This document shows, one piece after another, positions 1,868-14,833 of a stretch of DNA of 16,418 nt. Under the pieces are notes generated by a model. That model was not told where the DNA came from. It saw only the letters and a list, made by a program, of their open reading frames with translations, and ran no database searches. The position numbers were made by a program, and so were the translations under genes. Position 1 is the first letter of the stretch; each line of letters opens with the position of its first letter. The stretch comes from Clostridia bacterium. Lineage in GTDB: Bacteria > Bacillota > Clostridia > Christensenellales > Aristaeellaceae. The stretch lies in contig JAZRWA010000002.1 of NCBI GenBank assembly GCA_045599485.1, positions 1 through 16,418 of the forward strand, in the 5' to 3' direction.

Positions 1868-2025
1868 GGACATAAAAAATCCGCTCGCAGCAGACGGGCG
1901 GAATCATTGCTTCATGTCTCGCCTTATCTGTCGGTGTTGCCACCGCCGGAATTAGCACCGCACGTTTTACCGTCGGTTGCCGGGCATCATCGGGCCGTTC
2001 CCTCCGCCACTCTTGATAAGGGATG
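1868..2025 (-). promoter_or_regulatory. SAM-I (S-box) riboswitch with expression platform, upstream of metK
   Basis: The minus strand reads CTTATCAAGAGTGGCGGAGGGAACGGCCCGATGATGCCCGGCAACC...GTGCGGTGCTAATTCCGGC...ACAGATAAGG, which matches the S-box core almost base for base (aptamer about 1922-2022). It is followed by a short GC hairpin (CCGCCC...GAGCGG) and ATTTTTTAT (1872-1880), then the metK RBS. Confidence 0.93.
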
Positions 2026-3705: not shown

Positions 3706-4812
3706 TTATTGGAGCAGACCTGCCAGCTCCGCCATGACGGAGGGCGTATCGATGTTCTGCGGGCAATGACCAGTGCAGGCACCGCAGCCGACGCAATCAG
3801 CAGGTTTACCGACGGATTCGATCTTTTCGGCAGCCCTTAGCGCACCGCGGCCATCCACCTTGTAGGCGTTATAGAGGTTAAGGTATTCGGGAATGTTGAT
3901 CTCCGCCGGGCAGCCGTCGCAGCAGTAGCGGCAGGAGGTGCAGGGAACCTGTACCTGATGACGGAACATTTCGCAGGACTTGAAAAGGAGTGCGGTCTCC
4001 TCATCCGTCAGGGGATTACCGTCAAAGGTGTTGAGGTTATCCTGAAGCTGGTCCATGCTGCTCATGCCGCTCAAAATGACATGTACGGCAGGCAATGTGC
4101 GCACAAAGCGCAGGGACCAGGAAGCGATGCTCCAATCGGGATGGGCGGCCTTCAGCGGGGCTTCGGCTTCGGGGGTCAGCGCCGCGAGACGTCCGCCACG
4201 AACCGGCTCCATGACCATGATGGGGATGCTGCGCTTGGCAAGAATATCGTATTCCTGCTTGGAGGTGCCGTAGAGCCAGTCATAATAATTGATCTGCAGC
4301 TGAGCAAAATCCCAGGCGTGATGATCGGCAAAGCGGGTCAAGGTTTCAAGAGAAGCGTGGCTGGAGAAGCCGAGGTAACGGATACGCCCCAGACGCTTCT
4401 GCTCCAGGAAATACTCGATGGCACCGCTGCAAAGGTAGGAATCGATGTTGTTGTCGAGCAAGCAATGGATCAGATAAAAATCGATGCGATCGGTCTGAAG
4501 ACGCTGCAGCTGCTCTTCGAACACAGCTTTGTAATCGGGGTTGGCACCGATGAAATACTTGGAAGCCAGATAGAAGCTGTCACGGGGATGCTTGGTCATG
4601 CAGGCGCCCAGGCATTTTTCGGATTCGCCGCCGCTGTAGGTATAGGCGGTGTCAAAATAGTTGATGCCGTTTTCATAAGCGCTGTCGATGATCTGATGGG
4701 CGGCCGGATAATCGATGGCGGCTTTGGGGTCGGCGGGGTTGACGGTGGGAAGACGCATGTTGCCCATGCCGAGCGTGGACAGGCGAATGCCTTGATAATC
4801 CTTGAACTGCAT
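3706..4812 (-). CDS. Aldo/keto reductase with C-terminal 2x[4Fe-4S] ferredoxin-type module (COG1453-like)
   Basis: The start at 4812 (MQFKDYQGIRLSTLGMGNMRLP) is preceded by GAAGGGAGA. AKR core motifs are present (GINYFDTAYTYSGGESE, RIDFYLIHC). The C-terminus carries two Cys clusters, CTSCRYCCDGCP and CVGCGACTGHCP. Confidence 0.88.
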   Translation of the reverse strand: MQFKDYQGIRLSTLGMGNMRLPTVNPADPKAAIDYPAAHQIIDSAYENGINYFDTAYTYSGGESEKCLGACMTKHPRDSFYLASKYFIGANPDYKAVFEEQLQRLQTDRIDFYLIHCLLDNNIDSYLCSGAIEYFLEQKRLGRIRYLGFSSHASLETLTRFADHHAWDFAQLQINYYDWLYGTSKQEYDILAKRSIPIMVMEPVRGGRLAALTPEAEAPLKAAHPDWSIASWSLRFVRTLPAVHVILSGMSSMDQLQDNLNTFDGNPLTDEETALLFKSCEMFRHQVQVPCTSCRYCCDGCPAEINIPEYLNLYNAYKVDGRGALRAAEKIESVGKPADCVGCGACTGHCPQNIDTPSVMAELAGLLQ

Positions 4813-4851
4813 TGGAGATCTCCCTTCGGGATAATTTACACTTTCGTATTT

Positions 4852-4880
4852 TTTATACAATAAAATGCGCCGAAGGTCAA
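4852..4880 (-). promoter_or_regulatory. Probable promoter of the aldo/keto reductase gene
   Basis: On the minus strand, TTGACC (4880-4875) is followed by a 17-nt spacer and TATAAA (4857-4852). Confidence 0.55.
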
Positions 4881-6339: not shown

Positions 6340-7425
6340 TTACAGCAGATGAGAGCAGACGGGATCAAAGGAAAGGTAGGCGGTATCGCCGACGGAGAAG
6401 ATCTTTTTGTTGGCGGGGCAGTTGTCGGCAATGCGCACCAGCGTATCGCCCACACGGACGTGATAGTTCTGGTAGCTGCCCATGAAGCAGCTCAGCTCCA
6501 CCGTGCAGGGCAGATCGCCTTTGTCGGAGATGCAGATGGCCTCAGGGCGCAGCACGATGGTGCCTTCGCTGCTGGCTTTGATGCCTTCCGAAGCAGAGAC
6601 ACGGACGATGTGACCGCCGACGTTGACCGCGGCGATGCCCTCCGCGCAGGAGACGACAGAACCCTTCAGGAAGTTGCATTCACCGATGAAATCGGCCACA
6701 AATTCGCTGTTGGGATGATAGTAGATCTCTTCGGGGGTACCCATCTGGGCGATGACACCGCCCTTCATCAGAATGATCTGATCGGACAGGGACATGGCTT
6801 CACTCTGATCGTGGGTGACATAGATGGCGGTGATGCCGATCTTTTGCTGAATACGGCGGATCTCAGTGCGCATTTCCACTCTCAGTTTGGCATCCAGATT
6901 GGAGAGCGGCTCGTCAAAGAGCAGAACACCGGGCTCCACCACCAGAGCACGGGCCAGGGCGACGCGCTGCTGCTGACCGCCGGAAAGCTGGTTGGTCATG
7001 CGCAGCTCCATGCCGTCCAGCTTGACCAGGGACAGGATGTTCATGACCTTTTCGCGGATGACATTCTTGGGTACGCCGCGCAGCTTCAGACCGTAGGCCA
7101 CGTTATCGTAAACGTTCATATGGGGGAAGAGCGCGTAGGACTGGAACACCATGGCGGTATCGCGCTTGTTGGGGGTCAGCTCGTTGATGGGCTGGTCCGC
7201 CAGATAGATCTCGCCCTCATCGGGGGACTCAAAACCGGCGATCATGCGCAGCGTGGTGGTCTTGCCGCAGCCGGAGGGACCGAGCAGCGTGATGAAGCTG
7301 CCGGGGGCGATATCCAGATTGCAATCCTTCACGGCATAGAAATCGGCGTGGGTTTTGGGATCCTTGTAGATCTTGGAGATATGCTCCAGGCGAACGCCCT
7401 TGGGGGCTTTAACAGATTGACTCAT
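6340..7425 (-). CDS. ABC transporter ATP-binding protein, FbpC/AfuC/PotA-type with C-terminal TOBE-like domain
   Basis: Walker A GPSGCGKTT, Q-loop, signature LSGGQQQRVALARAL, Walker B LLFDEPLSNLD and H-loop VTHDQ are all present. A C-terminal beta domain of about 120 aa follows. RBS AGGAGGAAAG. Confidence 0.95.
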   Translation of the reverse strand: MSQSVKAPKGVRLEHISKIYKDPKTHADFYAVKDCNLDIAPGSFITLLGPSGCGKTTTLRMIAGFESPDEGEIYLADQPINELTPNKRDTAMVFQSYALFPHMNVYDNVAYGLKLRGVPKNVIREKVMNILSLVKLDGMELRMTNQLSGGQQQRVALARALVVEPGVLLFDEPLSNLDAKLRVEMRTEIRRIQQKIGITAIYVTHDQSEAMSLSDQIILMKGGVIAQMGTPEEIYYHPNSEFVADFIGECNFLKGSVVSCAEGIAAVNVGGHIVRVSASEGIKASSEGTIVLRPEAICISDKGDLPCTVELSCFMGSYQNYHVRVGDTLVRIADNCPANKKIFSVGDTAYLSFDPVCSHLL

Positions 7426-7442
7426 GATCTTCTTTCCTCCTG

Positions 7443-9194
7443 TCAGGCTTTGTACAGCGCTTTGGTTTCACGCTCAAATTTGCGGGCCAGGCGCTTCTGC
7501 TTGTGATCGGTGTCGAAGTAGCGCAGTATGCCGTTAAGCAGCAGGATCACGCCGTAGGTGATGACGATCAGCACAGTGGCGTAAGCGCAGGCGATTCCGT
7601 TTTCACCCTTCTCGGCAAACTCGTTGATACGAACCGTGATGAGCAGGTATTTGGGAGTGACCAGCAGGATGATGGCGGAAATGGCTGTGATGGAACGGAC
7701 AAAGGTGGTGACGAGACCGGACAGGAAGCTGTCTTTGATGAGGGGCAGCGTGACGGAGGTGAAAACCTTGCCGGAGCCGGCACCCATATCGTAGGCGGAT
7801 TCCTCGATGGATTTGTCGATCTGCCGCAGAGCGGAGATGCCGGAGCGTGTACCGGTGGGCAGCGAGCGGACGATGAACACGATGACAAGAATCGTACCTG
7901 TGCCGTACAAGCCCTGCATTACGCCGGAATGGAAAAGACCGGCGGAATAACCGCGGATGTAGCCGATACCGAGAACGGTTCCGGGGACAGCCATGGCCAG
8001 AATGGAGACAAACTCGATGAAGCCTTTGAGTTTGAATTTCTTTTTGACCACCAGATAGCTGATGATCATACTGAGCAGGGCGGTGATGGGCGTGGCAATG
8101 AGGGACAACAGGATGGAATCCTTATAGGCACGCAAGCCATCGATCTTCCACATGTTGACGAAGTGATCGGTGACCAGCGTGTAGTTGCGGCCCCACAGCT
8201 TGAACATGGCACCGAAGGGAACGGCGACATAAAGCAGTACGACAAAGATGCTGACGAGCGCGCAAAGCACAGACAGAGGATAGCGGACGGATTTGTCCTC
8301 AATCAGCATACGGGCACGGCTGGCCTTGCCGGTGAGCGTCTGGGCGGTCTTTTTTTCCAGATAATACTTCTGGATCAGGAAGAGCACCAATGTCAGCATC
8401 AACAGGATGACGGCCATGGCGGAAGCACCGGGCATATCGTACGTGCCGCCCGTTACCTGCAGGTAGATGGTGGTAGCCAGCGTATCGTAATTGCCGCCGA
8501 TCATCATGGGGTTGGCAAAGTCGGCGACAGACTCGATAAAGGTGACCAGGAAGGCATTGCCAAGACCGGGCAGCAGCAGGGGGAGCGTTACGGACGTGAA
8601 GACCTTGAAGCGGCCGGCGCCCATATCACGGCTGGCTTCCTCCAGGGAGGGATCAATGTTTTTAAGCAGACCCGTCAGCATCATGTAGCAGACAGGGAAG
8701 AAGGTGAGGATCTGAACGATGGCAATGCCGTGCAGACCGTAGATGTTGTTGTTGCGGATGCCCAGCAGCGTACGGGTGACAAGACCGGAACGGCCGAAGA
8801 GCAGGATCATGCTCAAGGACAGCACAAAGGGCGGAGAAACAACGGGGAGCATGCTGACCACCTTGAACAGACCGCGTACCATGCGGGAACGAAGACGGAC
8901 ATAGACATCCACATAGGCAAACAGCAGTCCCAAAGTTACGGAACCGAAGCCTACGATGAGACCCAGCACGATGGTGTTGTTGAAGGCATTGCGGAAGGTA
9001 TACAGATCCCATACGCGGCCGAAAACCGAGAATGAGATGCCGTTGCTGCCGCTGATGGCATCGACCAACAGCATGGCAAGGGGATAGAGAATGAACAGCG
9101 AGAGGAAGATGACCAGAATGACGATGGCACCGATCAGCGTTGGATCGGCAAGGAATTTTTTACGGTCAAGTCGTTTGCTGTTTGATGTGGCCAC
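7443..9194 (-). CDS. ABC transporter permease, fused two-domain (FbpB/AfuB-type, about 12 TM)
   Basis: 583 aa with two repeats of the binding-protein-dependent permease module; the EAA-type loops are EEASRDMGAGRFKVFTSVTLPLL and EESAYDMGAGSGKVFTSVTLPLI. The GTG start at 9194 lies 7 nt after AAGGAGG. Confidence 0.93.
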   Translation of the reverse strand: MATSNSKRLDRKKFLADPTLIGAIVILVIFLSLFILYPLAMLLVDAISGSNGISFSVFGRVWDLYTFRNAFNNTIVLGLIVGFGSVTLGLLFAYVDVYVRLRSRMVRGLFKVVSMLPVVSPPFVLSLSMILLFGRSGLVTRTLLGIRNNNIYGLHGIAIVQILTFFPVCYMMLTGLLKNIDPSLEEASRDMGAGRFKVFTSVTLPLLLPGLGNAFLVTFIESVADFANPMMIGGNYDTLATTIYLQVTGGTYDMPGASAMAVILLMLTLVLFLIQKYYLEKKTAQTLTGKASRARMLIEDKSVRYPLSVLCALVSIFVVLLYVAVPFGAMFKLWGRNYTLVTDHFVNMWKIDGLRAYKDSILLSLIATPITALLSMIISYLVVKKKFKLKGFIEFVSILAMAVPGTVLGIGYIRGYSAGLFHSGVMQGLYGTGTILVIVFIVRSLPTGTRSGISALRQIDKSIEESAYDMGAGSGKVFTSVTLPLIKDSFLSGLVTTFVRSITAISAIILLVTPKYLLITVRINEFAEKGENGIACAYATVLIVITYGVILLLNGILRYFDTDHKQKRLARKFERETKALYKA

Positions 9195-9223
9195 AGGATG
9201 ACCTCCTTAATGATGAAGAGAAA

Positions 9224-9247
9224 GGGGATGGTCCGAAGACCATCCCC
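9224..9247 (-). promoter_or_regulatory. Intercistronic GC-rich hairpin between the binding-protein and permease genes
   Basis: The minus strand reads GGGGATGGTC-TTCG-GACCATCCCC (perfect 10-bp stem with a UUCG tetraloop) followed by TTTCTCTTC. It lies between the SBP stop (9264) and the permease RBS. Confidence 0.75.
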
Positions 9248-9263
9248 AGATCTAAGGCAAAGA

Positions 9264-10349
9264 TTATTCGGTCATGAAGCGGCTGTCGGCAGCGGCACCC
9301 AGAGCATCGAAATAATCGGTGATGTACTGAGTGGTGTTGGCCTTGGCATCTTCAAAGTCGTAATCGATCACGTTGTCGGGATCCAGACCCATGTCATAAG
9401 CGACCTGAGGCTGTTCGGCGTTGTCCAGAACCAGGAACTGATAGGATTCGTTGTCTTTGGCCAGGTTGACGCAATCGGGAGACAGGGCGAATTCCACCCA
9501 CAGCTTGGCGGCGTTGGGATGCTTGTTGCCGGTGAAGATGGCGGTGGCGCCGATCTCATAAGAGGTACCGGAGGCGGGGATGACCAGACCCACGTTGTCG
9601 TAGCCCTTCAGGATCTGGGTGATGCCGTCATGCAGGAAGCCGACGCCGATGACGCATTCACCGATACCGACCTTCTTGGAGGGGCCGGAGCCGGACTTGG
9701 TGTACTGGGCAACGTTCTTATCCAGTTCGACGAAGTACTTCATGGCTTCGTCATGGCCCTTCATCTGAACCATGGTGTTGATGACCAGCTTGGCGGTGCC
9801 GGCGGTGTTGGGGTTGGAAATCCAGATCAGACCTTTGTATTCGGGCTTGAGGAGATCGTCCCAATCCTGAGGAGCTTCCAGGTTCATGTCTTCCAGTTCT
9901 TCGGTGTTGACCATGAAACCGAGGATGCCCTTGTAAATGCCGTACCAGTAGCCATTGGCATCACGGAAGTTGGACTTGGTGATGTGGGAGGCGTTCTGGG
10001 CTTCGTAGGCTTCGAGCAGACCGAGACCAGCAACGATGTTGTAGGGATCGGTGGTGCCGCCGAACCAGACGTCAGCACTGGGATTGCCGTTTTCGGCAGT
10101 GATCTTGGCCTGCACCTCACCGGTGGACAGACGCTGCTTGCTGACCTTGATGCCGAATTCCTTTTCGAACTGGGCGCAGGCAGCGGACAGGTACATTTCT
10201 TCGCAGGAGCCGTAGACGATCAGTTCGCCTTCAGCCTGAGCAGCGGCGACCAGCTCGGGATCAAAATCGGCGATCTCGGCGGAGGCCGTCAGGGAGAAGC
10301 AGCCGAGCGCCAGCATGGCGGTCAGCATCAGAGCCAGGAACTTTTTCAT
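9264..10349 (-). CDS. ABC transporter extracellular solute-binding protein (family 1; AfuA/FbpA/PotD-like)
   Basis: The start at 10349 (MKKFLALMLTAMLALGCFSLTASA, a signal peptide and possible lipobox LALGC) is preceded by AAGGAGG. The mature part (LIVYGSCEE...FEKEFGIKV...ADVWFGG...GYWYG) fits the Fe3+/polyamine/sugar-phosphate SBP cluster. The substrate cannot be called from sequence by eye. Confidence 0.9.
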   Translation of the reverse strand: MKKFLALMLTAMLALGCFSLTASAEIADFDPELVAAAQAEGELIVYGSCEEMYLSAACAQFEKEFGIKVSKQRLSTGEVQAKITAENGNPSADVWFGGTTDPYNIVAGLGLLEAYEAQNASHITKSNFRDANGYWYGIYKGILGFMVNTEELEDMNLEAPQDWDDLLKPEYKGLIWISNPNTAGTAKLVINTMVQMKGHDEAMKYFVELDKNVAQYTKSGSGPSKKVGIGECVIGVGFLHDGITQILKGYDNVGLVIPASGTSYEIGATAIFTGNKHPNAAKLWVEFALSPDCVNLAKDNESYQFLVLDNAEQPQVAYDMGLDPDNVIDYDFEDAKANTTQYITDYFDALGAAADSRFMTE

Positions 10350-10398
10350 GGGAATTTTCCTCCTTGGATATAGAATATGGAATTTCCTGATAATCGAT

Positions 10399-10427
10399 AT
10401 TATATATTCGAATGTCACTTCTGTCAA
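10399..10427 (-). promoter_or_regulatory. Promoter of the ABC importer operon
   Basis: On the minus strand, TTGACA (10427-10422) is followed by a 17-nt spacer and TATAAT (10404-10399), a perfect consensus. The 5' UTR is about 40 nt with no riboswitch-sized leader. Confidence 0.8.
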
Positions 10428-10485: not shown

Positions 10486-10515
10486 TTGACAACAGGGGGC
10501 GGATATGGTTAAATT
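10486..10515 (+). promoter_or_regulatory. Promoter of the T-box-controlled operon
   Basis: TTGACA (10486-10491) is followed by a 17/18-nt spacer and TTAAAT/TAAATT (10509-10515). The predicted start lies about 10 nt before the stem I K-turn. Confidence 0.65.
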
Positions 10516-10530
10516 AATGCCACAACCTGT

Positions 10531-10797
10531 TGCGATGACGGAATTATGGTTCCGGATTTCAACGCCCAGAGAGTTGGCGGATGGTGCGAGCCAATGCGTG
10601 AAACGGAAACCAGTCTCCCTCCCGAGCAGATGATGCGAAAGCGTTGGCCGTTAGCATGATCCGATTGGCCCCGTTAAAGGCTATGGACTTGATTGAGTCC
10701 GAGAGAACGTTTTTTTCCGGAACGGAAAGAAGCGTCCAGGGTGGTACAACGAAGTGATTTTCGCCCCTGAAACCGATATGGCTTCAGGGGCGTTTTT
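10531..10797 (+). promoter_or_regulatory. T-box leader (tRNA-sensing riboswitch) with intrinsic terminator
   Basis: Stem I elements: K-turn halves TGCGATGA (10531-10538) and GAGCA (10624-10628), AG bulge AGAGAG (10568-10573), and a distal loop containing GGTGCGA (10583-10589) closed by TTGGC/GCCAA. An F-box-like CCGTTA sits at 10648-10653. The T-box sequence CAGGGTGGTACAACG is at 10737-10751, and its GGG...CGAA can pair with TTCG.CCC of the terminator's 5' arm to form the antiterminator. The terminator is CGCCCCTGAA-(10 nt)-TTCAGGGGCG plus TTTTT (10762-10797). Confidence 0.92.
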
Positions 10798-10828
10798 CTA
10801 TCGATTTTAAGCTAAAGGAGAAGATACC

Positions 10829-12244
10829 ATGAGCGTTGTCAGACTGGCCGACATGACCATGCGTCAGAGCGGCAAAAATGTGCATTTCAGCCTTAACTTC
10901 AGAGAAAAGCTGGAGCTGGCCAAGCTGCTGGACCGGCTGGGCGTATCGGTAATTGAAGTCAGCGCCTTTGCCAACCCGAAGGTGGACCGACTGCTGGTCA
11001 AGTCGATCTGCTCTGCTGTAAAGGACAGCACCGTGGCGGTCTCTGTGGGGCTGAGCGAAGAAAACATCGCGCCCGTTCGCAGTGCTATGGAGGAATGCGC
11101 TCATCCGCGACTGCAGGTGACGGCTCCCGTCAGCGCCGTGCAGATGGAGTACCTCGCCGGCAAAAAACCCGCCGCCATGCTGGAAACGATTACCCGGCTG
11201 GTGAGCGCCTGCCATGCGGTTTGCCCTGATGTGGAACTGATCGCCGAAGACGCGACCCGTGCCGACAGCGCTTTTCTTTACGACGCTGTGCGCGCTGCCA
11301 TTGCGGCCGGGGCTTCCACGGTGACGCTGTGTGATGCCGCGGGCAATATGCTGCCCGATCAGTTTGCTTCCTTTATTAATGATGTAAAGGAAAATGTGCC
11401 CGAACTTCAGCAGATCACGCTGGGTGTGGCCTGCAGCAATGACCTTTCGATGGCCGACAGCTGCGCTGTTTCCGCCATCCGCTGCGGCGCGGGGGAGATC
11501 AAGTGTGCCGCGCACGCTGTGAACACCGTCAATCTGGGCAATGTGGCCCGTATTCTGGCAGTCAAGGGGACGGATTTTGACGCTGCGACCGATGTGACCA
11601 CCACGCAGATGAACCGTACGCTGGCTCAGATCTCCCGCCTGTGTGAGAGCGAGCGCAGTGAGAATTCCCCCTTCGATAACGGCGTACAGGCGGCGGACGG
11701 CACCTTCATGACCGTTCATGATGATATCACCGCCGTGATGAAGGCCGTCAACAAGCTGGGCTACGATCTGTCCGAGGAGGACAGCGTGAAGGTGTTTGAA
11801 GCCTTTGGACGCATTGCCGCCAAGAAGGAAACGGTCAACATCAAGGAACTGGACGCCATTGTGGCTTCCGCCGCGATGCAGGTTCCTTCTACTTATAAGC
11901 TGGAAAGCTATGTGATCAACACCGGCAACACCATCAGCGCCACGGCCCACATGAAGCTGAACAAGAACGGTGTGATGCTGGAGGGCATCAGCCTGGGTGA
12001 CGGTCCCATCGATGCCGCCTTCCTGGCGGTGGAGCAGATCGCCGGACGCCATTATGAACTGGATGATTTCCAGATCCAGGCCGTGACCGAAGGCCATGAG
12101 GCTATGGGCGAAGCAGTGGTCAAGCTGCGCAATGAGGGCAAGCTGTTCTCCGGCCGCGGCATTTCCACCGACATTGTGGGCGCGAGCATTCATGCCTATA
12201 TCAGTGCGCTGAACAAGATCGTTTACGAAGAAGCCGCTCTGTGA
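10829..12244 (+). CDS. LeuA/HMGL-like (DRE-TIM metallolyase fold) protein with LeuA_dimer regulatory domain; catalytic metal ligands substituted
   Basis: 471 aa, RBS AAAGGAGAAG. It is colinear with 2-isopropylmalate/citramalate synthases: IEVSAF vs IEAGFP, VELIAEDATRAD vs VEFSAEDAGRTD, and C-terminal GDGPIDAAFLAVEQI and GRGISTDIVGASIHAYISALNKI. However, DTTLRDGEQ reads DMTMRQSGK, HCHND reads ACSND (11429-11437), and GIGERAGN reads AVNTVNLGN. Confidence 0.85.
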   Translation: MSVVRLADMTMRQSGKNVHFSLNFREKLELAKLLDRLGVSVIEVSAFANPKVDRLLVKSICSAVKDSTVAVSVGLSEENIAPVRSAMEECAHPRLQVTAPVSAVQMEYLAGKKPAAMLETITRLVSACHAVCPDVELIAEDATRADSAFLYDAVRAAIAAGASTVTLCDAAGNMLPDQFASFINDVKENVPELQQITLGVACSNDLSMADSCAVSAIRCGAGEIKCAAHAVNTVNLGNVARILAVKGTDFDAATDVTTTQMNRTLAQISRLCESERSENSPFDNGVQAADGTFMTVHDDITAVMKAVNKLGYDLSEEDSVKVFEAFGRIAAKKETVNIKELDAIVASAAMQVPSTYKLESYVINTGNTISATAHMKLNKNGVMLEGISLGDGPIDAAFLAVEQIAGRHYELDDFQIQAVTEGHEAMGEAVVKLRNEGKLFSGRGISTDIVGASIHAYISALNKIVYEEAAL

Positions 12245-12269
12245 CGGCGAGACGGAAAGGAGATAACAA

Positions 12270-14786
12270 ATGAATCTTTCTTTTTCGACCCGCGGCTGGC
12301 AGGAATGCAGCTGGCAGGAGAACACCGAGACTGCGGTGACCATGCGCTTTCAGGGCATTGAACTTTATAATGTGACGGAGGATGAGCAGCTGACGGGCCG
12401 CGGCGGTCCTTTGCATAAATACAACACAGCAGCGACCGTGCGTGAGCTGAAGGAAAAGAAACTGACGGTGCCCTGCATCGACTCTTCCTGCGACATCTCG
12501 GTGCCGGGCAGTGTCGAGACCGTGAAAGCCATGCTGGAGCATGCCCGCAACATTCAGTGCCCCTGCGTGGCAGTAACGGCTCTGAAGGATAACGAAGAGA
12601 CGGTGCGTGCTGCATTGACCGAGCTGGTGCCGCTGGCGGCGGTGCAGCAGGTGACGATCCTGATCAAGACCACCGGCATTTATGCCGATACCGCCCGCCT
12701 GCGCGCGCTGCTGGACGATTTTGCCTGCGATGAGATCGCGGCGCTGTGGAGCATGCACCATCCCTATCGCCTGGCGCATGAATCCGCTGACACGACCATC
12801 AAGAATCTGGGCGGCTATGTCCGCCATGTGCATCTGCGTGACTCTGACGACGAGGGCGAAAACCAGCTCATCGGTGAAGGCACCCTGCCTGTCAAGGACA
12901 TGATGCGCGCCCTCAGCTCCATTGACTACGACGGCTTCATCAGCCTGGAATGGAAGCCCATGTGGATGGAGGAGCTGCCGGACCGCGAGGTCATTTTCCC
13001 GTACTTTGTCAACTACATGAACCGCTTTGAGCAGACCCGCGGCAAGAAAAAGGAGCTTTACGATAACGCTGCCCACACCGGCAAGTTCATCTGGAAGAAG
13101 GATCAGCTGATCAACCTGACCTTCCCGCAGGTGCTCGACCGTGTGGTGGAGGAGTTCCCCGACCAGTACTGCTTCAAATATACCACGCTGGATTATACCC
13201 GCACCTACGAGGAATTCCGCGAGGATGTGGACAACTTTGCGGCGGCGCTGATCTCGCTGGGCGTGAAGCGCGGCAGCAAGGTGGCCATCTGGGCGACCAA
13301 CGTGCCTGCCTGGTACATCACCTTCTGGGCTGCGACCAAGATCGGCGCTGTGCTGGTGACGGTCAATACCGCGTACAAGATCCATGAGGCGGAGTATCTG
13401 CTGCGCCAGAGCGATACCCATACGCTGGTCATGATCGAATCCTGTCTGGATTCCAATTATAAAGAGATCATCCGCGAACTGTGCCCGGAGATCGATTCCG
13501 CCCGTCCCGGCCAGCCGCTGCACTGCAAGAAGCTGCCTTTCCTGCGCAACGTGATCACTTCGGGCTTCCGCATGAAGGGCTGCCTGACGCTGGAGGAGGC
13601 GATGGAGCGTTCTTCTCTGGTGCCCCGTGAGGAAGTGCTGCGCATGGCGGCGCAGGTGCGCCCCGATGATGTGTGCAACATGCAGTACACCAGCGGTACC
13701 ACCGGCTTCCCCAAGGGCGTCATGTTGACCCATTACAACGTGGTCAATGACGGCAAACAGATCGGCGACCGCATGGACCTGTCCACGGCGGACCGTATGA
13801 TGATCCAGGTGCCCATGTTCCACTGCTTTGGCATGGTGCTTTCGATGACCAGCAGCATGACGCATGGCACCACCATGTGTCCGATGCCGTATTTCTCGGC
13901 GAAGGTGAGCCTGGCTTGCATCAATCAGGAGCGCATCACCTGCTTCAATGGCGTACCGACGATGTTTATTGCCATGTTCAACCATGCCGATTACCGCAAG
14001 ACGGACTTTTCCTACATGCGTACGGGCATCATGGCCGGCAGCGGCTGCCCGCCCGAACTGATGCGGCGCGCCGCGCAGCCCGATGAGATGCACATGCTGG
14101 ACATCGTCAGCGTGTACGGTCAGACCGAATCCGCCCCCGGCAGCACCATGAGTGCCTGCGGCGACCCGCTGGACCTGCGCGTCAACACAGTCGGCTATGC
14201 CTTCCCGCATGTTGAATGCAAGGTCATCGACCCCGAAACGGGCGAGGAAGTGCCCGTGGGCGTGAACGGCGAGTTCTGCTCCCGCGGCTACAACATCATG
14301 AAGGGCTATTACAAGATGCCCGAGGCGACCGCCGCCGCCATTGACAAGGATGGCTGGCTGCACAGCGGTGACCTGGCCTGCCGTGATGAACAGAACTGCT
14401 TCCGCATCACGGGACGCCTGAAGGATATGATCATCCGCGGCGGTGAAAACATTTATCCCAAGGAAATTGAGGAATTCATCTACACTCATCCCGCAGTCAA
14501 GGATGTGCAGGTCATCGGTGTGCCGGATAAGAAGTACGGTGAGGAGATCATGGCGTGCGTCATCCTCAAGGAGCCCGGCTCTGTGACGGTGGAGGAGATG
14601 CTGACCTACATCAAGGCTTCTCTGGCCCGCCACAAGGTGCCGCGCTACATCGAGTTTGTGGACGCCTTCCCGATGAACGCCGCCGGCAAGATCCTGAAAT
14701 ATAAGATGCGCGAGGAAGCCACCGAGCGTCTGGGCCTCAAGGGCGCGGCAGGCATCGATACCGCGTCTCCCGGCAAAAAGGAATAA
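12270..14786 (+). CDS. Fusion protein: N-terminal xylose-isomerase-like TIM barrel (sugar phosphate isomerase/epimerase family, about aa 1-250) plus C-terminal AMP-forming acyl-CoA synthetase (YngI/ACSF2-like, about aa 280-838)
   Basis: RBS GGAAAGGAG lies 7 nt before the ATG. The N-terminal part has HVHLRD, EGTLPV and YDGFISLEW, typical of AP_endonuc_2/PF01261. The C-terminal part has all adenylate-forming motifs: YTSGTTGFPKG (13686-13718), YGQTES, GEFCSRG, GWLHSGD, GRLKDMIIRGGENIYPKEIE and PMNAAGKILK. The frame is uninterrupted, and no internal start is associated with the junction. Confidence 0.88.
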   Translation: MNLSFSTRGWQECSWQENTETAVTMRFQGIELYNVTEDEQLTGRGGPLHKYNTAATVRELKEKKLTVPCIDSSCDISVPGSVETVKAMLEHARNIQCPCVAVTALKDNEETVRAALTELVPLAAVQQVTILIKTTGIYADTARLRALLDDFACDEIAALWSMHHPYRLAHESADTTIKNLGGYVRHVHLRDSDDEGENQLIGEGTLPVKDMMRALSSIDYDGFISLEWKPMWMEELPDREVIFPYFVNYMNRFEQTRGKKKELYDNAAHTGKFIWKKDQLINLTFPQVLDRVVEEFPDQYCFKYTTLDYTRTYEEFREDVDNFAAALISLGVKRGSKVAIWATNVPAWYITFWAATKIGAVLVTVNTAYKIHEAEYLLRQSDTHTLVMIESCLDSNYKEIIRELCPEIDSARPGQPLHCKKLPFLRNVITSGFRMKGCLTLEEAMERSSLVPREEVLRMAAQVRPDDVCNMQYTSGTTGFPKGVMLTHYNVVNDGKQIGDRMDLSTADRMMIQVPMFHCFGMVLSMTSSMTHGTTMCPMPYFSAKVSLACINQERITCFNGVPTMFIAMFNHADYRKTDFSYMRTGIMAGSGCPPELMRRAAQPDEMHMLDIVSVYGQTESAPGSTMSACGDPLDLRVNTVGYAFPHVECKVIDPETGEEVPVGVNGEFCSRGYNIMKGYYKMPEATAAAIDKDGWLHSGDLACRDEQNCFRITGRLKDMIIRGGENIYPKEIEEFIYTHPAVKDVQVIGVPDKKYGEEIMACVILKEPGSVTVEEMLTYIKASLARHKVPRYIEFVDAFPMNAAGKILKYKMREEATERLGLKGAAGIDTASPGKKE

Positions 14787-14799
14787 ACAGGAATCAAGA

Positions 14800-14833
14800 A
14801 ACGCTCCGTACAGAGGAATCTGTACGGAGCGTT
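14800..14833. terminator. Bidirectional terminator between convergent genes
   Basis: A perfect 14-bp stem, AACGCTCCGTACAG (14800-14813) with CTGTACGGAGCGTT (14820-14833), closes a 6-nt loop. It is followed by CTTTG on the plus strand and TTCTTGATT on the minus strand. Both U-tracts are weak. Confidence 0.75.

What the first reader, a model, noticed from the sequence alone, without database searches (positions are those of the whole stretch)
12270..14786. 838-aa fusion of a complete xylose-isomerase-like TIM barrel with a complete acyl-CoA synthetase
Both halves look full length. About 250 aa of AP_endonuc_2-type barrel end at ...FPYFVNYMNRF. After a linker of about 30 aa (EQTRGKKKELYDNAAHTGKFIWKKDQLIN), a synthetase of about 560 aa begins with the LTFPQVLDRVVEEFPDQ... 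N-terminus typical of stand-alone YngI/ACSF2-type enzymes. Every adenylation motif, including the A10 lysine, is intact. Covalent coupling of these two families implies channelling between a sugar or keto-acid isomerase/epimerase/dehydratase-type barrel and carboxylate activation. I do not recognise this as a described enzyme architecture.
Basis: partly seen in the sequence, partly recalled or inferred. Interest (0 to 1): 0.7.

Follow-up and report, generated by a model that had tools for sequence, protein, structure and literature searches.

The report
Leucine-controlled barrel–acyl-CoA ligase fusion operon
The 838-residue fusion is real and widespread in uncultured gut and rumen Clostridia, always follows a catalytically dead LeuA copy behind a leucine-sensing T-box switch, and probably activates isovalerate so that leucine can be made from it when leucine is scarce.

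Summary
The ORF 12270-14786 is intact and has the stated domains: a xylose-isomerase-like TIM barrel, a 29-aa linker and a complete AMP-forming acyl-CoA synthetase (ACS). It is not an assembly artefact. At least 120 protein clusters and the 80 best-matching GTDB species carry the same fusion, named only "AMP-binding protein".

- The gene is always the second of a pair. The first gene (10829-12244) is a LeuA paralogue that has lost all three metal ligands but keeps a highly conserved LeuA regulatory domain.
- A T-box leader (10526-10799) precedes the pair. Its specifier is CUN (Leu) in all 54 leaders assigned to a LeuA-like gene.
- In related genomes the pair lies beside two MbcS-like ACS genes with Ile and Val T-boxes, a VorB-type 2-oxoacid:ferredoxin oxidoreductase, a PFOR-like gene or IlvE.

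The barrel's canonical catalytic Glu is Lys in 73 of 79 species, and Asp161 is Ser only in this protein. An ordinary isomerase feeding the ACS is therefore unlikely.

Best reading, inferred rather than shown: a leucine-starvation-induced isovalerate-CoA ligase for the isovalerate carboxylation route to leucine. The dead LeuA would act as a leucine sensor. The role of the barrel is unresolved. I found no paper describing the architecture or the cassette.

The parts
10486..10515 (+). Promoter-like site (TTGACA, 18 nt, TAAATT) upstream of the leader
   Evidence: Consensus scan, 10 of 12 matches. Sequence read. This is a consensus match only, not evidence of function.
10526..10799 (+). T-box leader with a leucine specifier. 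Elements: AGAGAG 10568-10573; specifier CUC 10615-10617; K-turn GAG 10624-10626; T-box sequence AGGGUGGUAC 10738-10747; terminator stem 10762-10792 followed by a U-run to 10797.
   Evidence: Rfam RF00230 matches 10526-10771 over the full model 1-219, at 58.1 bits and E 3.4e-12, below the gathering score of 93. An nhmmer profile of related leaders matches at 5e-48. The homologous position is CUG, CUC, CUU or CUA in all 54 leaders assigned to a LeuA-like gene.
10829..12244 (+). Pseudo-LeuA: a 471-aa LeuA paralogue with an HMGL-like barrel that lacks metal ligands (DMTMRQSGK 10850-10876; ACSNDLSMA 11429-11455) and an intact LeuA_dimer regulatory domain (aa 336-464)
   Evidence: Pfam HMGL-like 5.6e-31 and LeuA_dimer 1.2e-31. 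The best NCBIfam LeuA model scores 291 bits against a cut-off of 532. Alignment to Listeria LeuA 3ewb shows RDGEQ replaced by RQSGK, HCH replaced by ACS, and GIGERAGN gapped. The gene lies immediately upstream of the fusion in every locus that has upstream DNA.
12254..12262 (+). Ribosome-binding site of the fusion gene, inside the 25-nt gap after the pseudo-LeuA stop codon
   Evidence: Sequence read.
12270..13028 (+). N-terminal xylose-isomerase-like TIM barrel (aa 1-253). Lys133 codon AAG 12666-12668. Ser161 codon AGC 12750-12752. His188, Asp191 and Glu227 are retained.
   Evidence: Pfam PF01261. AF2 pLDDT 94.3. Foldseek matches to the PDB. Active-site column counts.
13029..13115 (+). Conserved 29-aa linker (aa 254-282), EQTRGKKKELYDNAAHTGKFIWKKDQLIN
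   Evidence: Mean identity to the window protein over aa 256-285 is 62% across 65 species, about the same as the barrel. pLDDT is below 50 for aa 256-274 in the full-length model.
13116..14786 (+). AMP-forming acyl-CoA synthetase (aa 283-838) with motifs A3 13686-13718, A5 14115-14129, A8 14412-14459 and A10 Lys 14676-14699
   Evidence: Pfam PF00501 and PF13193. NCBIfam PRK12583 at 663 bits. Motif coordinates. Mean identity to the window protein is 82% across species.
14800..14833 (.). Hairpin (AACGCTCCGTACAG / CTGTACGGAGCGTT) between the convergent fusion gene and the SH3/Big_2 gene; a likely terminator
   Evidence: Sequence read. The simple terminator scan did not report it, because the T-run is weak.

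Best explanation
The fusion is the enzyme of a two-gene, leucine-controlled operon: T-box(Leu), then pseudo-LeuA, then barrel-ACS.

Proposed mechanism:
1. When tRNA-Leu is uncharged, the T-box leader lets transcription read through.
2. The ACS domain uses ATP and CoA to activate a leucine precursor acid, most likely isovalerate (3-methylbutyrate), to its CoA thioester.
3. A 2-oxoacid:ferredoxin oxidoreductase (a VorB-type VOR or a PFOR-like enzyme, encoded next to the operon in many relatives) reductively carboxylates the thioester to 4-methyl-2-oxopentanoate.
4. A branched-chain aminotransferase converts that to leucine. This is the isovalerate carboxylation pathway known from rumen physiology.
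5. The upstream protein is a LeuA paralogue that can no longer bind the catalytic metal but keeps the LeuA regulatory domain. I propose it is a leucine-sensing subunit that feeds back on the ligase.

The N-terminal barrel is not an ordinary metal-dependent isomerase, because Glu133 is replaced by Lys. Its pocket residues are nevertheless strictly conserved, so it probably binds a ligand or docks the pseudo-LeuA.

Shown: the ORF, its domains, the conservation of the fusion, the obligatory gene pair, the T-box and its specifier, the loss of catalytic residues, and the neighbourhoods.

Inferred: the substrate, the biosynthetic direction, and the regulatory roles of pseudo-LeuA and the barrel.
For: Gene pair:
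- tblastn finds the LeuA-like gene directly upstream of the fusion in 80 of the 81 fetched loci. The exception, L033, has no upstream DNA.
- In the five contigs that start too close to the pair (L049, L069, L071, L078, L081), only the 3' part of the LeuA-like gene is seen.

T-box:
- In the window, Rfam RF00230 matches with E 3.4e-12 over the full model, and a terminator precedes the RBS.
- nhmmer finds homologous leaders in front of the LeuA-like gene in most loci.
- Their specifier is CTG 33, CTC 19, CTT 1 and CTA 1. Only the wobble base varies.

Internal control. The same position reads ATC (34 leaders) or GTC/GTA (17 leaders) in front of the neighbouring HTH-cupin-ACS genes. The ACS part of those genes best matches MbcS (NF047394, 411 bits, below its cut-off of 850). 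S. aureus MbcS activates 2-methylbutyrate and isobutyrate but only poorly isovalerate (PMC10026030). So there are three ligase genes under three BCAA-specific T-boxes.

Neighbours. Of 79 loci, 31 have a VOR and 14 a PFOR-like gene. Twelve of those PFOR-like genes lie directly downstream on the same strand, with gaps of -7 to 170 nt. Nine loci have IlvE.
- VorB scores 551.8 bits against a cut-off of 399.
- The branched-chain aminotransferase scores 453 against 307.
- The PFOR scores 1654 against 911 (all).
- In L014 the pair lies at the end of a same-strand run, Val-T-box, ACS, ATPase, VOR alpha/beta/gamma, IlvE.

Pseudo-LeuA. The metal ligands Asp, His and His are absent in all species. The regulatory domain is 72% identical across species, against 50% for the dead barrel, and is nearly invariant over its last 80 residues.

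ACS. It is the most conserved part of the fusion (82%) and YngI/ACSF2-like.

Physiology. Isovalerate carboxylation to leucine is long documented in rumen bacteria (Allison 1962 and 1966, as cited in PMC7356843). All 81 loci are from gut, rumen or faecal MAGs.
Against: - No substrate was tested, and ACS specificity cannot be read from the sequence. The closest solved structures are a fatty-acyl/feruloyl-CoA synthetase and FadD13.
- The window itself has no oxidoreductase or aminotransferase within 16 kb. About 35 of 79 loci show no OFOR in the fetched flanks.
- The pathway needs no TIM-barrel step, so the most distinctive part of the finding stays unexplained. The barrel pocket is too conserved for a mere spacer: His188, Asp191 and Glu227 are kept in 79 of 79 species.
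- Leucine binding by the pseudo-LeuA is inferred only from family membership. The regulatory domain alone gave no PDB match.
- No physical interaction has been shown. No triple fusion appeared among the 120 closest pseudo-LeuA homologues.
- The window's T-box scores below Rfam's gathering threshold (58 against 93 bits).
- About 13 loci lack a leader of their own in front of the pair.
Confidence: 0.55

Rival explanations
1. The barrel is an active isomerase, epimerase or dehydratase whose carboxylate product passes directly to the fused ACS, as a bifunctional channelling enzyme.
For: - The barrel fold is complete and confidently modelled.
- Its pocket residues His164, His188, Asp191, Glu227, Trp160 and Trp228 are invariant or nearly so in fusions and in stand-alone relatives.
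- Lys133 is itself conserved (114 of 120 homologues, 73 of 79 species), which suggests a changed function rather than a lost one.
- Distant fusions (P0182, P0199, P0155) keep the full Glu-Asp-His-Glu tetrad and have no pseudo-LeuA partner. For that clade the model remains open.
- From my own knowledge, there is a functional precedent for a PF01261 enzyme feeding an adenylating enzyme: AsbF makes 3,4-dihydroxybenzoate, which AsbC activates in petrobactin synthesis.
Against: - The canonical catalytic and metal-binding Glu is Lys in the window's clade, and Asp161 is Ser in this protein.
- The barrel evolves much faster than the ACS (59% against 82% identity).
- Stand-alone relatives of the barrel are never next to an ACS in the three contexts examined.
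- The Leu T-box and the VOR/IlvE context point to a pathway without an isomerase step.
- The Ile- and Val-controlled ligases carry a different N-terminal module (HTH plus cupin). That pattern suggests the N-terminal modules are accessory or regulatory.
Confidence: 0.15
2. The operon serves leucine supply, but the ACS activates a different acid. Candidates are another leucine precursor or analogue such as 4-methylpentanoate or 2-hydroxyisocaproate, or a short acid that supplies acyl-CoA to a condensing enzyme. The pseudo-LeuA barrel would then act as a substrate-binding or presenting subunit rather than a leucine sensor.
For: - The Leu T-box ties the operon to leucine limitation but not to a particular acid.
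- The pseudo-LeuA keeps several non-metal LeuA motifs, such as EDATRAD and the Arg/Lys of the RD motif.
- ACS specificity is unknown.
Against: - The parallel with the MbcS-like ligases under Ile and Val T-boxes, next to a VorB-type oxidoreductase, fits the set isovalerate, 2-methylbutyrate and isobutyrate best.
- The pseudo-LeuA barrel is the least conserved part of the cassette (50%), whereas the regulatory domain is at 72%.
Confidence: 0.17
3. Catabolic reading. The cassette works with VOR or PFOR in the oxidative direction (BCAA to 2-oxo acid to acyl-CoA to acid), with the ACS running in reverse or scavenging.
For: - OFORs are reversible, and gut Clostridia produce branched short-chain acids from BCAAs (general knowledge).
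- Oxidoreductase and aminotransferase genes lie adjacent in many relatives.
Against: - T-box leaders switch genes on when the cognate tRNA is uncharged, that is, when leucine is scarce. That is the opposite of what a leucine-degrading operon needs (established T-box mechanism; specifiers).
- AMP-forming ligases are effectively irreversible in vivo and are not used for ATP conservation (general knowledge).
Confidence: 0.03
4. Artefact. Two adjacent genes were merged by an assembly or indel error at the junction.
For: None found. Read-level data are not available here.
Against: - The same continuous ORF occurs in at least 120 protein clusters from independent assemblies and in 81 loci from different species.
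- The linker sequence is itself conserved (62% mean identity to the window protein).
Confidence: 0.01

Closest known systems
YngI / ACSF2-type medium-chain acyl-CoA synthetases (NCBIfam PRK12583; ANL superfamily)
   Same: The ACS half aligns over model positions 14-556 of 558. All adenylation motifs, including the A10 Lys, are present.
   Different: - The score of 663 bits is below the family cut-off of 832.
- It carries an N-terminal TIM barrel and a conserved linker.
- It is always co-encoded with a pseudo-LeuA and placed under a Leu T-box.
- No member with this architecture has been characterised, as far as I could find.
MbcS, the methylbutyryl-CoA synthetase of Staphylococcus aureus (PMC10026030)
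   Same: It activates exogenous branched short-chain acids to CoA thioesters. MbcS-like ligases under Ile and Val T-boxes sit next to the cassette in about 40 of 79 loci.
   Different: - MbcS feeds fatty-acid synthesis, not amino-acid synthesis.
- It uses isovalerate poorly.
- The window's ACS belongs to a different ANL subfamily and has different accessory domains.
2-Isopropylmalate synthase LeuA (HMGL-like catalytic barrel plus leucine-binding regulatory domain)
   Same: The partner protein has the same two-domain layout. Its regulatory domain is strongly conserved. Its gene is under leucine control, as leuA genes often are.
   Different: - The Asp, His and His metal ligands and the GERAGN motif are lost in every species.
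- NCBIfam scores are about half the cut-off.
- NCBI names it only 'alpha-isopropylmalate synthase regulatory domain-containing protein'.
- It is therefore a pseudoenzyme, not a LeuA.
Xylose-isomerase-like TIM barrels: ketose 3-epimerases, UlaE, hydroxypyruvate isomerase, SCO6571
   Same: The fold matches at TM 0.7-0.8. The Pfam PF01261 match is above the gathering score. The His and the second Glu of the metal site are retained.
   Different: - Identity to any solved structure is only 11-16%.
- The first Glu of the tetrad is Lys, and Asp161 is Ser in this protein.
- The closest stand-alone relatives (about 30-36% identity) are uncharacterised 'sugar phosphate isomerase/epimerase' proteins.
T-box riboswitch regulons of branched-chain amino acid genes in Firmicutes
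   Same: The leader has Stem I with a K-turn, an AGAGA box, a specifier loop, the T-box sequence and a terminator. The specifier matches a BCAA codon.
   Different: The regulated genes are acyl-CoA ligases and an OFOR rather than aminoacyl-tRNA synthetases, ilv-leu biosynthesis genes or transporters. I found no paper linking T-boxes to this gene set.

Membership tests
ANL superfamily, AMP-forming acyl-CoA synthetase | Pfam AMP-binding plus AMP-binding_C domains above the gathering scores | tested here: met
   AMP-binding scores 301.9 bits (cut-off 29.9) and AMP-binding_C scores 66.5 bits (cut-off 24.5).
ANL superfamily, AMP-forming acyl-CoA synthetase | Core motifs: A3 (T/S)GTTGxPKG, A5 YGxTE, A7 GD, A8 GRxKD hinge, A10 catalytic Lys | tested here: met
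   YTSGTTGFPKG 473-483, YGQTE 616-620, SGDLA 699-703, GRLKDMIIRGGENIYP 715-730, NAAGKILK 803-810.
ANL superfamily, AMP-forming acyl-CoA synthetase | ATP- and CoA-dependent thioester formation with a defined acid | not testable with these tools
   This needs an enzyme assay.
PRK12583 (YngI/ACSF2-like fatty acid CoA ligase subfamily) | Whole-protein score at or above NCBI's curated cut-off | tested here: not met
   663.2 bits against a cut-off of 832, although it is the best-scoring model and is covered almost end to end.
Xylose isomerase-like TIM barrel (PF01261, AP_endonuc_2) | Pfam match above gathering score, and a (beta/alpha)8 fold similar to solved members | tested here: met
   62.8 bits against 31.1. 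AF2 pLDDT 94.3. Foldseek probability 1.00 and TM 0.70-0.81 to 2zds, 3cqj, 7cj5 and 3wqo.
Xylose isomerase-like TIM barrel (PF01261, AP_endonuc_2) | Canonical Glu-Asp-His-Glu metal and catalytic tetrad. The mapping to the motifs LLIETNG, LWD, HVH and SLEW relies on my recollection of D-psicose 3-epimerase Glu150, Asp183, His209 and Glu244. | tested here: not met
   - The window protein has Lys133, Ser161, His188 and Glu227.
- Lys133 occurs in 114 of 120 close homologues and in 73 of 79 species.
- Glu occurs in 70 of about 86 distant relatives.
- No residue-level structural superposition was made.
2-Isopropylmalate synthase LeuA (for the partner gene 10829-12244) | HMGL-like catalytic domain plus LeuA_dimer regulatory domain | tested here: met
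   PF00682 at 108.3 bits and PF08502 at 109.8 bits over profile positions 2-130 of 131.
2-Isopropylmalate synthase LeuA (for the partner gene 10829-12244) | Divalent-metal ligands Asp (RDGEQ) and His-x-His, plus the GERAGN motif | tested here: not met
   RQSGK, ACS and a gap in the window protein when aligned to 3ewb. The same holds in all species and in the family profile.
2-Isopropylmalate synthase LeuA (for the partner gene 10829-12244) | Score at or above the NCBIfam equivalog cut-off | tested here: not met
   The best model, NF002086, scores 290.9 bits against a cut-off of 532.
2-Isopropylmalate synthase LeuA (for the partner gene 10829-12244) | Leucine binding by the regulatory domain | not testable with these tools
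   Only conservation was shown (72% identity; last 80 residues nearly invariant). A sequence search of the regulatory domain against the PDB found nothing.
T-box leader (RF00230) | Match to the covariance model at Rfam's gathering score | tested here: not met
   58.1 bits against 93. The E-value is 3.4e-12 and the whole model (positions 1-219) is aligned.
T-box leader (RF00230) | Conserved elements: K-turn, AGAGA box, specifier loop, T-box sequence with the UGGN bulge, and a terminator before the regulated gene | tested here: met
   GAUGA/GAG, AGAGAG 10568-10573, AGGGUGGUAC 10738-10747, and a terminator at 10762-10797 before the RBS.
T-box leader (RF00230) | A specifier triplet that behaves as a codon, varying only at the wobble base | tested here: met
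   CTG 33, CTC 19, CTT 1 and CTA 1 in leaders before pseudo-LeuA. ATC, or GTC/GTA, at the same position in leaders before the MbcS-like genes.
T-box leader (RF00230) | Antitermination dependent on uncharged tRNA | not testable with these tools
   This needs in vitro transcription or in vivo reporters.

The most novel reading that the evidence does not exclude
The cassette would be the missing genetic basis of the first step of the isovalerate carboxylation pathway to leucine. The step would be built in an unprecedented way: an ANL ligase whose activity is gated by a catalytically dead LeuA paralogue acting as a leucine sensor, docked through a repurposed xylose-isomerase-type barrel that has Lys in place of the metal-binding Glu.

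Together with the MbcS-like ligases under Ile and Val T-boxes and a shared VOR, it would define a T-box-programmed regulon. That regulon would let uncultured gut and rumen Oscillospirales make each branched-chain amino acid from the matching branched short-chain acid.
Probability: 0.25. Interest if true: 0.8.

Novelty: new variant of a known kind. Interest (0 to 1): 0.66.

Why it matters
Rumen and gut anaerobes have been known since the 1960s to make leucine, valine and isoleucine by carboxylating isovalerate, isobutyrate and 2-methylbutyrate (Allison, as cited in PMC7356843). In my searches of the held library I found no assignment of the activating enzymes or their regulation to genes.

This locus and its relatives give a concrete, testable gene set:
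- three acyl-CoA ligase genes, each behind a T-box specific for one branched-chain amino acid;
- a VorB-type oxidoreductase next to them;
- IlvE.

The set occurs in abundant uncultured gut and rumen Clostridia. One fusion cluster alone holds 5426 sequences.

It also offers a likely new example of a pseudoenzyme recruited as a regulatory subunit, here a dead LeuA that keeps its allosteric domain. In addition, it shows a xylose-isomerase-type barrel with a Glu-to-Lys change at the metal site.

Practically, it bears on branched-chain amino acid and branched short-chain acid budgets in the gut and rumen. It also corrects annotations: stand-alone barrels are mislabelled 'fatty-acyl-CoA synthase', and the fusion is labelled only 'AMP-binding protein'.

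Tried and rejected
- **Assembly artefact.** Rejected, because the fusion is conserved in 81 loci and at least 120 clusters.
- **Context of stand-alone barrel relatives** (P0374, P0349, P0276). The genes appear monocistronic with unrelated neighbours. A divergent PGA_cap gene is present in two of three contexts. There is no ACS nearby, so no Rosetta-stone support.
- **Distant fusions with an intact Glu133** (P0182, P0199, P0155, P0160). The contigs are short. There is no LeuA-like gene in the 160-1950 nt upstream, no hit to the leader profile in L087 or L088, and the downstream genes are unrelated. L089 and L090 were fetched after the profile search and were not scanned for leaders. These contexts say little about function.
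- **Full-length AF2 model**, made to look for a barrel-ACS interface. The quality is too low (pLDDT 71.6, pTM 0.50, linker below 50), presumably because the ACS alignment is shallow. Domain packing was not interpreted.
- **Triple fusion of pseudo-LeuA with the ligase.** None among the 120 closest pseudo-LeuA homologues.
- **PDB search with the regulatory domain alone.** No hit. Leucine-binding residues could therefore not be mapped.
- **ACS substrate from solved relatives.** The best matches (8weu, 8wev, FadD13, 4CL, oxalyl-CoA and malonyl-CoA synthetases) are too diverse to infer specificity.
- **Rfam at gathering thresholds.** This found only the SAM riboswitch. The T-box appeared only in the E-value search of the intergenic region.
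- **Literature.** Six searches found no paper on the fusion, the pseudo-LeuA, or T-box control of acyl-CoA ligases and OFOR. The library lacks most subscription journals, so this is not proof of absence.
- **Catabolic role.** Considered and rejected on T-box logic.

Full report
**1.

Window 12270-14786 (+) is one uninterrupted 838-codon ORF. A good RBS lies 7 nt upstream. Pfam finds three domains:
- AP_endonuc_2, aa 25-230;
- AMP-binding, aa 290-681;
- AMP-binding_C, aa 732-807.

The best NCBIfam model is the YngI/ACSF2-like PRK12583. It is covered almost end to end, but at 663 bits it is below its cut-off of 832.

**2. It is not an artefact and it is common**

A search of 5.8 billion proteins returned, as its 120 best clusters, only proteins of 823-849 aa with the same three Pfam domains at 75-100% identity. 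They are named at most 'AMP-binding protein' or 'fatty-acyl-CoA synthase'. One cluster holds 5426 sequences.

A scan of one genome per GTDB species found at least 595 relatives of the barrel. All of the best 80 align through the linker into the ACS. tblastn confirms the continuous fusion in all 81 fetched loci at 57-81% identity. The lowest value comes from a contig that ends inside the barrel.

All are gut, rumen or faecal MAGs. Most are labelled Oscillospiraceae, Faecousia, Acutalibacteraceae, Lachnospiraceae or Clostridia, and a few carry other labels.

**3. The barrel: complete fold, altered active site**

The barrel alone models with pLDDT 94.3 and pTM 0.91. It superposes on SCO6571, UlaE, Art22 and D-allulose and D-tagatose 3-epimerases at TM 0.7-0.8, but at only 11-16% identity.

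Its closest stand-alone relatives are uncharacterised 266-276-aa 'sugar phosphate isomerase/epimerase' proteins of Clostridia, at 30-36% identity. These proteins, and the distant fusions P0182, P0199 and P0155, share the motifs LLIETNG, LWD(V/I)(H/N)HP, HVHxKDS and SLEW.

From my knowledge of ketose 3-epimerases, these motifs carry the Glu-Asp-His-Glu metal and catalytic tetrad. The counts at those positions are as follows.

| Position | Window protein | 120 close homologues | 79 species | Distant relatives |
|---|---|---|---|---|
| 133 | Lys (ILIKTTG) | Lys 114 | Lys 73, Glu 4, Tyr 1, Arg 1 | Glu 70 of about 86 |
| 161 | Ser (LWSMHHP) | Ser 1, Asp 113 | Asp 79 | - |
| 188, 191, 227 | His, Asp, Glu | - | kept in 79 of 79 | - |

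So the pocket is under selection, but it is not the ancestral metal site. The barrel also evolves faster than the ACS: 59% against 82% mean identity to the window protein.

**4. The gene is never alone**

The ORF just upstream (10829-12244) has an HMGL-like domain and a LeuA_dimer domain. tblastn finds its homologue ending a few nucleotides before the fusion start in every locus that has upstream sequence.

Aligned to Listeria LeuA (3ewb), DTTLRDGEQ reads DMTMRQSGK, HCHDDLG reads ACSNDLS, and GIGERAGN is deleted. The same degeneracy is seen in all species and in the family profile. All three metal ligands of the DRE-TIM lyase site are gone. NCBIfam LeuA models reach only about half their cut-offs. 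NCBI calls the family 'alpha-isopropylmalate synthase regulatory domain-containing protein'.

The regulatory domain, by contrast, is 72% conserved against 50% for the dead barrel. Its last 80 residues are almost invariant. I call this protein pseudo-LeuA.

**5. A leucine T-box controls the pair**

The 400-nt gap upstream of pseudo-LeuA contains:
- a promoter-like site at 10486-10515;
- a full-length match to Rfam T-box at 10526-10771 (58.1 bits, E 3.4e-12, below the gathering score of 93);
- the T-box sequence AGGGUGGUAC at 10738-10747;
- a strong terminator at 10762-10797, just before the RBS.

A profile built from 44 such leaders finds 127 leaders in the fetched loci.

I used Geobacillus glyQS as the guide for the specifier position. 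There the specifier loop reads GAA-GGC-A and is followed by the lower helix and the K-turn GAG (from memory). The specifier is then the triplet 9 to 7 nt before the K-turn GAG.
- In leaders preceding pseudo-LeuA it is CUG 33, CUC 19 (including the window, 10615-10617), CUU 1 and CUA 1. This is always a leucine codon, and only the wobble base varies.
- In leaders preceding the neighbouring HTH-cupin-ACS genes, the same position is AUC (34) or GUC/GUA (17), that is Ile or Val. This serves as an internal control for the reading frame.

**6. Neighbourhood in relatives**

A typical layout (for example L013, L015-L019, L025, L030, L039, L044, L051, L054) is as follows:

VOR gamma <- beta <- alpha <- CbiA-like ATPase <- ACS(Val T-box) <- ACS(Ile T-box) | (Leu T-box) -> pseudo-LeuA -> barrel-ACS

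The annotations are:
- The alpha subunit passes the VorB model (551.8 bits, cut-off 399).
- The ACS part of the HTH-cupin-ACS proteins best matches MbcS (411 bits, below its cut-off).
- An IlvE-type aminotransferase (453 bits, cut-off 307) is present in 9 loci.
- A PFOR (1654 bits, cut-off 911) is present in 14 loci. In 12 of them it lies directly downstream of the fusion on the same strand.

Overall, 44 of 79 loci show an oxidoreductase and 56 show at least one associated family. In L014 the pair has no leader of its own. It lies at the end of the same-strand run ACS(Val T-box)-ATPase-VOR-IlvE. The window itself has none of these genes within 16 kb.

**7. Interpretation**

T-boxes turn genes on when the cognate tRNA is uncharged. 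Three acyl-CoA ligase genes under Leu, Ile and Val T-boxes, next to a 2-oxoisovalerate-type ferredoxin oxidoreductase and IlvE, fit the classical reductive carboxylation routes:
- isovalerate to leucine;
- 2-methylbutyrate to isoleucine;
- isobutyrate to valine.

These routes are documented in Allison 1962 and 1966 and in Allison and Peel 1971, as cited in PMC7356843. S. aureus MbcS activates 2-methylbutyrate and isobutyrate but hardly isovalerate (PMC10026030). That matches the use of a different ligase type for the leucine branch.

I therefore read the fusion's ACS as a leucine-starvation-induced isovalerate-CoA ligase. I read pseudo-LeuA as a leucine sensor giving feedback at the protein level, because the part it conserves is the LeuA allosteric domain.

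The barrel remains unexplained. The pathway needs no such step. The Ile and Val ligases carry a different N-terminal module, which suggests accessory or regulatory roles. Even so, the barrel's pocket is conserved.

Substrate, direction and regulatory roles are inferences. Nothing was assayed.

**8. What argues against, and alternatives**

It stays open for the distant fusions that keep the full tetrad and lack pseudo-LeuA.
- A different leucine-related acid cannot be excluded.
- A catabolic role contradicts T-box logic.
- Physical interaction of pseudo-LeuA with the fusion is unproven. There were no triple fusions. The full-length AF2 model was too poor to interpret.

**9. Comparison with known systems, and novelty**

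Each piece belongs to a known kind: an ANL ligase, a PF01261 barrel, a LeuA fold and a T-box. The combination has not been described in anything I could search. The combination comprises:
- a barrel-ACS fusion with a remodelled metal site;
- an obligatory pseudo-LeuA partner;
- BCAA-specific T-box control of acyl-CoA ligases and VOR.

I rate it a new variant of a known kind. It has good potential to assign genes to a 60-year-old physiological pathway.

Noticed in passing
L002-L081, e.g. L044:3245-5518 (-), L013:5576-7843 (-): A family of about 757-aa proteins fuses an XRE-type HTH, a cupin and an MbcS-like acyl-CoA synthetase. The genes often occur in tandem pairs. Each is preceded by its own T-box leader, with an Ile (AUC) or a Val (GUC/GUA) specifier. 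Like the finding itself, this is a regulator-like module fused to a ligase.
   Followed up: partly
e.g. L054:2406-3092 (-): A 229-aa CbiA/MinD-like P-loop ATPase with no NCBIfam match is conserved between the Val-T-box ligase gene and the VOR alpha subunit in 32 loci. Its role next to an OFOR is unexplained.
   Followed up: no
window 12750-12752: Codon AGC gives Ser161, where 113 of 120 close homologues and all 79 species have Asp, a presumed metal ligand. Going from GAY (Asp) to AGC needs two base changes. It could be a real lineage-specific change or a sequence error.
   Followed up: partly
proteins P0277, P0285, P0286, P0295, P0317, P0322 and others: JGI labels stand-alone 267-aa barrels with no ACS domain as 'fatty-acyl-CoA synthase'. 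The annotation was probably transferred from the fusion proteins.
   Followed up: no
window 1921-2022 (-): A SAM riboswitch (RF00162, 81.8 bits) lies upstream of metK. The mechanically listed ORF 672-2042 therefore overruns the leader. The true MetK probably starts at MSKVRKLF.
   Followed up: no
window 12201-14633 (-): An 810-aa ORF lies antisense to the fusion gene. Similar long antisense ORFs lie opposite most genes of the window. They look like shadow ORFs of a 53-59% GC genome, not genes.
   Followed up: no
window 3706-4860 (-): An aldo/keto reductase is fused to a C-terminal 4Fe-4S dicluster domain (Pfam Aldo_ket_red plus Fer4_9).
   Followed up: no
window 6340-10427 (-): An ABC importer is transcribed divergently from the T-box operon. 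It comprises a solute-binding protein (SBP_bac_6/8), a 583-aa ORF between the two that looks like a membrane permease by its sequence (not scanned against any family library), and an ATPase. A perfect TTGACA-17-TATAAT promoter match sits at 10427-10399 (-). This neighbour is not conserved in relatives.
   Followed up: no
L066, L067, L073, L074: Four cassette-bearing MAGs, labelled Bacteroidaceae, Eggerthellaceae or 'bacterium', keep Glu133 in the barrel. They have pseudo-LeuA but no T-box leader. They may represent an intermediate stage, horizontal transfer outside the Firmicutes, or mis-binning.
   Followed up: partly
L082:6549-7886, L085:6536-7858: In two of three contexts, a PGA_cap (CapA-like) gene is transcribed divergently from the stand-alone barrel relative.
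   Followed up: no
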